Of a stretch of DNA of 26,078 nt, positions 15,120 through 16,002 are shown one piece after another. Where the stretch lies: positions 1-26,078 of the forward strand of contig NW_021835601.1 in NCBI RefSeq assembly GCF_006345805.1, given 5' to 3'. The notes beneath the pieces were generated by a model. That model did not search any database. It was not told the origin of the DNA and worked only from the letters and a program-made list of their open reading frames with translations. The position numbers and the translations under genes were made by a program. The DNA comes from Octopus sinensis. Its lineage: Eukaryota. How positions within the stretch are numbered: position 1 is the first letter of the stretch; every line of letters begins with the position of its first letter.

Positions 15120-16002
15120 ATTATTTCAATTTTTTTCCACAAGGGCAGCTTCGGGGAGGTGGGGATGAGTCGATTATATCGATCCCTGTGTTTCACTGGT
15201 ACTTATTTTATCGACCCAGAAAGGATGAAAGGCAAATTCGACCTCGGCGGAATTTTAACTCAGAACATAGCGGCAGACGAAATACCTCTTTCTTTACTGC
15301 ACACAAAAGGCTAAACACAGAGAGGACAAGCAAGGACAGACAAAAGGATTAAGTCGATTATATCGACTCCACTGCGTAACTGGTACTTATCTAATCGACT
15401 GCGAAAGGATGAAAGGTAAAGTCGACCTCGGCGGAATTTTAACTCAGAACGTAGCGGCAGACGAAATATCTATTTTTTTACTACCCACAAAGGGCTAAAC
15501 ACAGAGAGGACAAACAAGGACAGACAAAAGGATTAAGTCGATTATATCGACTTCACTGCGTAACTGGTACTTATTTAATCGACCTCGAAAGGATGAAAAG
15601 TAAAGTCGACGTCGGCGGAATTTGAACTCAGAACGTAACGGCAGACGAAATACGGCTACGCATTTCGCACGGTATTCTAATGTTTCTGCCAGCTCGTCGC
15701 CTTAAAGGATGAAAGGCAAAGTCGACCTTGGCGGAATTTTAACTCAGAGCGTAGCGGCAGACGAAATACCCATTTCTTCACTACCCATAAGGGGCTAAAC
15801 ACAGAGAGGACAAACAAGGACAGACAAATGGATTAAGTCGATTATATCGACCCCAGTGCGTAACTGGTACTTAATTTATCCACCCCGAAAGGATGAAAGA
15901 CAAAGTCGATCTCGGCGGAATTTGAACTCAGAACATAATGGCAGACGAAATACGGCTACGTATTTCGCCCGGCGTGCTAACGTTTCTGCCAGCTCGCCAC
16001 TT
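15120..16002 (-). mobile_element. Chain of ~5 nested/tandem family Z SINE bodies (three with tail B)
   Basis: Repeated GAAAGGATGAAAGGCAAAGTCGACCTCGGCGGAATT blocks; tail-B junctions at 15274-15286, 15458-15470 and 15758-15770. Confidence 0.92.

What the first reader, a model, noticed from the sequence alone, without database searches (positions are those of the whole stretch)
15120..16002. Self-targeting SINE: every complete tail-B end is followed by the SINE's own internal motif GGTATTTCGTCTG
Seen: tail B (TTAATCC.TTTGTCTGTCCTTGTTTGTCCTCTCTGTGTTTAGCCCCTTGTGGGTARTAAAGAAATA) joins G(G/A)TATTTCGTCTG in 5 of 5 complete cases: 15274-15286, 15458-15470, 15758-15770, 17740-17752 and 19570-19582. Solo copies with other tails (14909, 22409) instead have ordinary TSDs in unique DNA. 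Inference: the tail-B subfamily is inserted sequence-specifically into other copies of its own family, building chains at independent loci.
Basis: partly seen in the sequence, partly recalled or inferred. Interest (0 to 1): 0.8.

Follow-up and report, generated by a model that had tools for sequence, protein, structure and literature searches.

The report
Octopus SINE stacking inside its sisters
In an octopus genome, one tail variant of a very common short jumping element is joined, wherever its end is intact here, to the same spot inside another copy of its own family, and a longer jumping element starts 13 letters further along that spot, which suggests the short one is likely aimed at its sister copies by the longer one's cutting enzyme.

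Summary
Observation confirmed: 5 of 5 complete tail-B ends abut the head motif G(G/A)TATTTCGTCTG (M); a sixth tail is truncated. The window is octopus DNA. The joint occurs in contigs of all 4 runs laid. Only 3-4 of the 5 joints look independent. Best reading (0.5): tail B likely lets the SINE borrow an M-targeting LINE, with 5' joints made by annealing to the host. Main rival (0.3): one ancestral joint spread by read-through RNA pairing with sister copies. No genome was held, the LINE's 3' end was not seen, and 0 of 5 joints show the textbook short duplication around a full copy. Precedent: SINEU-3/Tx1-Mar. The scan had no note on this DNA; one note reports a similar idea for a LINE elsewhere.

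The parts
15771..16002 (-). unit a1: full head + body + tail B (tail 15771-15836)
   Evidence: no target duplication around the whole array
15704..15770 (-). unit a2: M + 54 nt of body, then a full head; candidate long target duplication of a3's insertion
   Evidence: shares two non-majority states with a4 and a5; 5 of 68 mismatches to each
15471..15703 (-). unit a3: full head + body + tail B (tail 15471-15536)
15287..15470 (-). unit a4: starts at M, 5' part like a5, 3' part like a3, tail B (15287-15352)
15120..15286 (-). unit a5: starts at M, body, a different tail (C); presumed host remnant
14915..15102 (-). solo family copy with tail A, 18-bp degenerate target duplication
17311..17525 (+). 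unit b1: old diverged host copy, tail A variant
   Evidence: 15 of 118 non-majority states
17522..17739 (+). unit b2: head lacking its first 15 nt, near-consensus body, tail B (17674-17739)
   Evidence: 4 of 119 non-majority states
17740..17948 (+). b3 + b4: second copy of the host unit from M on, its tail, partial head and a further M (17936-17948)
   Evidence: 3 differences in 167 nt to b1; 10 private changes shared with b1
17949..19416 (+). 5' part of an L1/Tx1-like LINE starting right after M: 5' UTR, frameshifted ORF1 (18113-about 19274, CCHC knuckle), start of an endonuclease-like frame (about 19256-19416); 3' part lost
   Evidence: endonuclease reading is by recalled motifs, no database hit
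19583..19813 (-). unit c1: full head + body + tail B (19583-19648)
19417..19582 (-). unit c2: starts at M, body, tail B truncated where it meets the LINE
8778..8942 (+). solo copy that begins exactly at M without tail B upstream and without target duplication
9271..9481 (-). solo copy, tail A variant related to b1/b3, weak target duplication
22415..22625 (+). old solo copy with a perfect 14-bp target duplication

Best explanation
Tail B is joined to the motif M inside other copies of the same octopus SINE, likely because it lets the SINE borrow the enzymes of an L1/Tx1-like LINE that is predicted to nick the SINE head at M. Shown: the tail-B joint lies at the first base of M and the LINE's 5' end at the last base of M, in the same orientation, 13-14 nt apart; M is the 3' arm of a 13-bp hairpin in the head. 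Inferred steps: (1) the LINE endonuclease nicks at the start of M; (2) tail-B RNA is copied from that nick, giving tail B + M; (3) because the new cDNA is homologous to the host, its 5' joint usually forms by annealing to host SINE sequence, so the result is a seamless extra 184-bp unit (M-body-tail B) rather than a full copy between short duplications; (4) when the second nick falls further downstream, 67-190 bp of host are duplicated (a2; b3-b4); (5) each insertion regenerates M, so chains grow, and ordinary unequal crossing-over adds some units (a3/a4).
For: 5 of 5 complete tails at M; joined form in 4 of 4 runs, 15-34 contigs per listed joint row, and none of the 24 loose-end rows shown lies at the tail-B end. 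LINE-type element starts at 17949 directly after M; one diverged contig (X2 record 9, 29 differences and 4 gaps in 236) aligns from 17943, across the last 6 nt of M into the LINE. A third neighbour also breaks at the start of M (8778). At locus b a near-consensus tail-B unit (4 of 119 non-majority states) sits between two host copies that share 10 private changes and differ at 3 of 167 sites, the second starting at M. The bases after M differ by locus. Precedents read: Tx1-Mar mobilising SINEU-3 into a fixed site of a transposon, with tandem copies sandwiching the duplication (PMC4494074); annealed 5' joints and long duplications when second-strand nicking fails in R2 (PMC13486585 passages); 13 recently active L1-Tx1 families in O. 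vulgaris (PMC13282606).
Against: The LINE's 3' end is missing in the window and was not retrieved, so tail B is not shown to come from it. 0 of 5 joints show the textbook pattern (host head, M, full new copy, M). The base right after M at 17753 is donor-type C, not the host's T. Tail B ends in GAAAT(A/G), the same letters as the head just upstream of the loop, so the joint also reads as a head with 6 nt deleted. Tail B shares a CCTTGTG...TAGTA(G/A)AA ending with the other tails, so it may be a sister tail, not a LINE end. In X2 record 9 the 16 letters upstream of 17943 do not align to the head. LINE depth is about 4 orders below tail-B depth. 2710 loose-end rows were not shown and the tool said some were not counted. 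Clade assignment rests on ORF1 likeness and recalled motifs; the endonuclease piece hit nothing.
Confidence: 0.5

Rival explanations
1. The tail-B/M joint formed once. Transcripts read through tail B into the next unit, and that read-through part base-pairs with nicked or broken sister copies and primes copying (or recombination) there. The element still ends up in its own family, but by homology, not by a sequence-specific nuclease; the LINE at 17949 is a bystander.
For: Donor-type C at 17753; GAAAT microhomology and a shared 6-nt loop loss at every joint; the youngest tail (b2) has no run of four T that would stop polymerase III; tail A is also joined to a head by AGAAT microhomology at 17522 and 17903; no textbook short-duplication insertion among 5.
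Against: At locus b the switch to host sequence must fall within 17 nt of the start of M out of about 110 homologous bases, and at locus c both units carry the same bases from the first position after M; it does not explain the LINE end at 17949 or the 8778 break at M.
Confidence: 0.3
2. A dimeric master (tail-B unit + second unit) inserted at ordinary sites and then expanded locally by unequal crossing-over, like short SINE-derived satellites; no targeting.
For: 184-bp and 300-bp periods; a3 and a4 share rare changes, a2/a4/a5 share two; SINE-derived tandem repeats and multimers are described (PMC10702118 discussion); an octopus SINE of about 410 bp is recalled from memory (no call), close to the length of such a dimer.
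Against: Second units carry tails A, B and C and three different starts; b3 is a copy of the local host, not of a master; array a has no target duplication around it.
Confidence: 0.15
3. Assembly or alignment artefact of collapsed repeats.
For: The family is extremely abundant.
Against: Units differ by 4-13% from each other in most pairs and the joint stands in contigs of 4 of 4 runs.
Confidence: 0.03

Closest known systems
SINEU-3 and Tx1-Mar LINEs of crocodilians (Kojima 2015, PMC4494074; parts 1-4 of 5 read)
   Same: A SINE and Tx1-clade LINEs share a fixed site in another repeat; tandem SINE copies sandwich the duplicated target; partner inferred from shared target.
   Different: There the target is an unrelated DNA transposon (Mariner-N4_AMi) and the head is snRNA-derived; here the target is the SINE's own tRNA-like head, so joints are seamless and chains are host-donor chimeras.
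Tx1L in Tx1D, Keno, Kibi, Koshi (as summarised in PMC4494074)
   Same: Tx1-clade LINEs with endonuclease-set targets in multicopy sequences.
   Different: None of the targets listed there is a SINE head; clade and specificity of the 17949 element are not established.
Zepp nested clusters (PMC3446292, passages)
   Same: Retrotransposon copies nested in each other in clusters.
   Different: Zepp is an autonomous LINE in one cluster per chromosome; here a non-autonomous SINE in short dispersed chains.
SINE-derived satellites of squamates (PMC10702118, passages and discussion)
   Same: Tandem units shorter than the SINE, 150-180 bp range, with full terminal units.
   Different: Those are attributed to duplication and homogenisation; here neighbouring units are of different subfamily type and age and a foreign LINE shares the breakpoint.
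R2 insertion mechanics (PMC13486585, passages)
   Same: 5' joint by annealing of cDNA to homologous target; long duplications when the second nick is missing.
   Different: R2 uses a different endonuclease class and rDNA; analogy for steps 3-4 only.
Octopus OK / OR1 / OR2 SINEs (Ohshima and Okada 1994) and Twitch (Albertin 2015)
   Same: tRNA-derived octopus SINEs; this family is probably one of them (recalled, no call).
   Different: Neither paper was held and SINEBase consensus files were not readable, so it is unknown whether a published consensus already contains this joint as a dimer.

Membership tests
tRNA-derived SINE | short, interspersed, high copy number | tested here: met
   15 units of 46-240 nt covering 10.3% of the window; 179,000-379,000 contigs laid per run on the 17575-19430 stretch
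tRNA-derived SINE | tRNA-related head with A and B boxes | tested here: inconclusive
   A-box-like TGGCAGAATCGTTAGC and B-box-like GTTCAAATTCC by eye; ARAGORN and Rfam find no tRNA
tRNA-derived SINE | target duplications around solo copies | tested here: met
   clear for 1 of 4 solos, degenerate for 2, absent for 1
Target-specific SINE with Tx1 partner (SINEU-3 type) | most copies flanked by one target sequence | tested here: inconclusive
   5 of 5 in window and present in 4 of 4 runs, but no genome-wide count
Target-specific SINE with Tx1 partner (SINEU-3 type) | a LINE family inserted at the same site | tested here: inconclusive
   one LINE 5' end at the end of M (17949); one more contig shares 6 nt of M
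Target-specific SINE with Tx1 partner (SINEU-3 type) | short target duplication on both sides of inserted copies | tested here: not met
   0 of 5 tail-B units lie as a full copy between two M copies; 5' joints are seamless or follow 67-190 bp duplications
Target-specific SINE with Tx1 partner (SINEU-3 type) | 3' end shared with the partner LINE | not testable with these tools
L1/Tx1-clade LINE (17949 element) | ORF1 with RNA-binding domains and CCHC knuckle | tested here: met
   three invariant Cys in alignment A1, zf-CCHC in homologues, Atlas neighbours zf-CCHC and ZCCHC3 RNA-binding domains at 0.88-0.92
L1/Tx1-clade LINE (17949 element) | AP-endonuclease at start of ORF2 | tested here: inconclusive
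   motifs DVIVATET and GGVLVLLK recognised from memory; no Pfam or protein hit
L1/Tx1-clade LINE (17949 element) | reverse transcriptase grouping with Tx1 | not testable with these tools
   RT not in the window; no homologue among those scanned was fused to RT (17 of 153 scanned)
MetaSINE / CORE-SINE | Meta or CORE central domain | tested here: not met
   by eye the body does not match BivaMeta, BivaMD or BivaCORE alignments in the PMC4824008 supplement; no computed alignment
Inv/alpha-domain SINE | Inv/alpha central domain | not tested
   recalled likeness only; consensus not obtainable
Dimeric SINE | one fixed second unit amplified with the first | tested here: not met
   second units have three tails and three starts at three loci

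The most novel reading that the evidence does not exclude
Octopus carries a three-way system: a Tx1-like LINE specialised on a hairpin in the head of the genome's commonest SINE, and a SINE subfamily that captured this LINE's tail and therefore inserts into its own family, each insertion restoring the target and a complete promoter-bearing unit. A sizeable share of the family (tail B at least 13-19% of body depth in four runs) would then have spread by using itself as a safe harbour.
Probability: 0.42. Interest if true: 0.72.

Novelty: new variant of a known kind. Interest (0 to 1): 0.52.

Why it matters
Target-specific SINEs are rare, and the described ones aim at another element or gene; a SINE that aims at its own promoter region, served by a LINE that parasitises the same site, was not found in the 10 paper searches run. 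SINEs are 11.6% of the O. vulgaris genome (PMC13282606), so it would change how these repeats are annotated and dated (chains are chimeras, not dimers or satellites), offer a retrotransposition route from SINE to tandem repeat, and point to an endonuclease with a 13-14 bp staggered site that can be assayed.

Tried and rejected
No whole genome held. DNA scans for octopus contamination: viral contigs 0 hits twice, prokaryote genomes 0, plasmids and phages 0; metagenomes gave 2 loci that match only the 21-23 nt pattern and are chance. Sampling tail-B flanks through spurious protein translations found nothing. A search for the LINE's ORF2 found nothing; 153 ORF1-search proteins held no SINE-derived or ORF2 sequence. 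Rfam gave only sub-threshold hits to simple repeats. DNA folds of the head and joint were not better than shuffles except one head (z -0.5 to -2.4); tail-B RNA folds were not significant. My first guess of a Meta domain was dropped. Depth 0 at 19001-19062 is a skipped repeat, not a finding. Earlier-finding look-ups by sequence and place returned nothing. No structure prediction was obtained, so the ORF1 fold rests.

Full report
Setting. The window is repeat-rich animal DNA. An ORF at 18343-19143 is 89% identical to a protein named for Octopus vulgaris and partly 63% identical to an O. bimaculoides CCHC protein, so the window is octopus. No whole genome was held. One SINE family covers 10.3% of the window in 15 units. 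Its sense strand begins with a tRNA-like head (A- and B-box-like motifs by eye; no tRNA call in 7 or 73), a conserved body, and one of several tails (A variants, B, C).

Observation. Confirmed at all five coordinates. A sixth tail B at 19417-19464 is truncated. A 13-nt flank match has probability 5e-7. The joints are not all independent: a3 (15471-15703) and a4 (15287-15470) share four non-majority states in their 3' halves and differ at 16 of 184 sites against 27 of 184 for a1-a4, so I count 3-4 independent joints at three loci. Of four solo copies with other tails, one has a perfect 14-bp duplication, two have degenerate ones within the range of the best random pairs, and one has none.

Outside the window. 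Twenty of 24 listed runs hold part of 17300-19830; I laid 4 of them (four organism labels, three studies) on 17575-19430. Joint rows from 17751, 17752 and 17754 back to the body start, which I read as tail-B end + M + consensus-type body, stand in 15-34 contigs per row in each run. The 24 loose-end rows shown are at the stretch edge, at the branch points to other tails (17646, 17647, 17659) and at the head (17903); none is at the end of tail B. This is only suggestive: 2710 rows were hidden, the tool did not count everything, and scattered flanks would spread over several positions. Summed depth in the tail-B bin is 42-47% of the body bin, with a lower bound of 13-19% after removing the part of the bin that is M and body; depth is a rough measure.

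What follows tail B. The unit after tail B ends in tail A (b3), tail B (a4, c2), tail C (a5) or nothing (a2), and the bases after M are CCGCTA at locus a, CCTTCA at b and TCTTTA at c. At locus b, b1 and b3 each carry 15 of 118 non-majority states, share 10 that no other unit has, and differ at 3 of 167 sites, while the tail-B unit between them has 4 of 119. So a young tail-B unit lies inside an old, recently duplicated host, and the second host copy starts at M. The head of b2 starts host-like (GAATCG) and turns tail-B-like (GCGTAGCCG), a seamless 5' joint. At locus a, a2, a4 and a5 share two states, which fits a2 being a 67-bp duplication of host sequence from M on, though a dimer subfamily with these states is not excluded. 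These patterns argue against a single dimeric master.

The LINE. After the partial head b4 and a complete M (17936-17948), sequence switches at 17949 to a 164-nt leader, a frameshifted ORF1 from 18113 with a CCHC knuckle, and a broken frame with endonuclease-like motifs, cut at 19416 by the inverted array c. ORF1 has 335 relatives at E up to 0.001, invariant knuckle cysteines, and Atlas neighbours with zf-CCHC and ZCCHC3-type RNA-binding domains. I call it L1/Tx1-like on this and on recalled motifs; the endonuclease piece hit nothing and no RT is present. Its depth is about 1e3-1e4 in run X1 against 3e7 in the tail-B bin. A 3' joint at the first base of M and a 5' joint at its last base, same orientation, is what a 13-14 bp staggered cut would leave. 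A rough, after-the-fact estimate of chance (10.3% family share x 1/2 for orientation x about 18 of 240 positions) is 0.4%; this was not simulated. One diverged contig aligns over 17943-18180, sharing the last 6 nt of M, but its next 16 letters upstream do not align (record 9). A solo copy at 8778 also begins exactly at M after unrelated sequence; it is unexplained. M is the 3' arm of a 13-bp head hairpin, the tail-B joint at the 3' edge of its loop (z -2.7 as RNA for a1, not significant for most DNA folds). From memory, with no call behind it, 3' ends of octopus Tx1-like LINEs are pyrimidine-rich and end much like tail B; this is a lead only.

Mechanism. Best reading (0.5): nick at M by the LINE endonuclease, copying of tail-B RNA, 5' joint by annealing to the homologous host, long duplications when the second nick is distant, regenerated M, plus some local duplication. 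The positions of the joints and the host/donor pattern are shown; every enzymatic step is inferred. Annealed 5' joints and long duplications after failed second-strand nicking are reported for R2 (PMC13486585, passages). Against: none of the 5 joints shows a full copy between two M copies; 17753 is donor-type; tail B ends in GAAAT(A/G) like the head upstream of the loop, so the joint may be one ancestral event with a 6-nt loss; tail B's last 25 nt resemble the other tails. These support rival 1 (0.3), spread of one ancestral joint by read-through RNA pairing with sister copies, which is still self-directed but not nuclease-directed. Rival 2 (0.15) is a dimer plus local unequal crossing-over, which explains a3/a4 but not locus b.

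Comparison with what is known. Closest is SINEU-3 with Tx1-Mar (PMC4494074, parts 1-4 of 5 read): 313 of 347 near-full copies flank one DNA transposon, and tandem copies sandwich the duplication. Zepp forms nested clusters (PMC3446292, passages). SINE-derived satellites and SINE multimers are described in PMC10702118 (passages and discussion). Domain papers were seen as passages (PMC4824008; PMC5804259; PMC4758252; PMC3531059; PMC8869645, nothing relevant). Searches listed no paper whose title or abstract start describes a self-targeting or SINE-targeting element in octopus; the library lacks most subscription papers, the 1994 octopus SINE paper and the 2015 genome paper were not held, and the SINEBase supplement was unreadable, so the joint may already sit in a published consensus as a dimer.

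Verdict. The feature is real and occurs beyond this window; insertion into sister copies is supported at one locus strongly and at two weakly; nuclease-set targeting with a named partner is plausible but unproven. New variant of a known kind, interest 0.52.

Noticed in passing
window 17522 and 17903 (+): Tail A is itself joined to a head fragment through AGAAT microhomology, a second kind of self-insertion joint at a different site; the two instances are one duplicated event.
   Followed up: partly
window 8778-8942 (+): Solo copy starting exactly at M after decayed simple-repeat sequence, no tail B, no duplication; could mark the 3' end of another M-directed insert.
   Followed up: partly
window 19416/19417: The LINE (+) is fused to the truncated tail B of array c (-); both elements lose their 3' parts at one point, suggesting a deletion between facing elements.
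   Followed up: no
window 710-2759: Tandem repeat of period 476, 4.3 copies, 97% matches.
   Followed up: no
window about 9606-10000, 22660-22970, 5700-5900(-), 9030-9180(-), 13716-13790: Copies of other tRNA-like SINE families; one at 22660 directly follows the 22415 copy.
   Followed up: no
window 20532-20610 (+): Heavily deleted remnant of the same SINE family (head piece, body piece, tail C-like end).
   Followed up: no
proteins P0002, P0015, P0039, P0140: ORF1 of this LINE family is annotated as, or fused into, host gene models (P0002 is named EPM2A-interacting 1-like; P0015 LDL-receptor repeats; P0140 C2H2 zinc fingers), probably annotation artefacts.
   Followed up: partly
window 6795-7825: Long ATG/TCA triplet arrays in opposite orientations giving spurious ORFs in several frames.
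   Followed up: no
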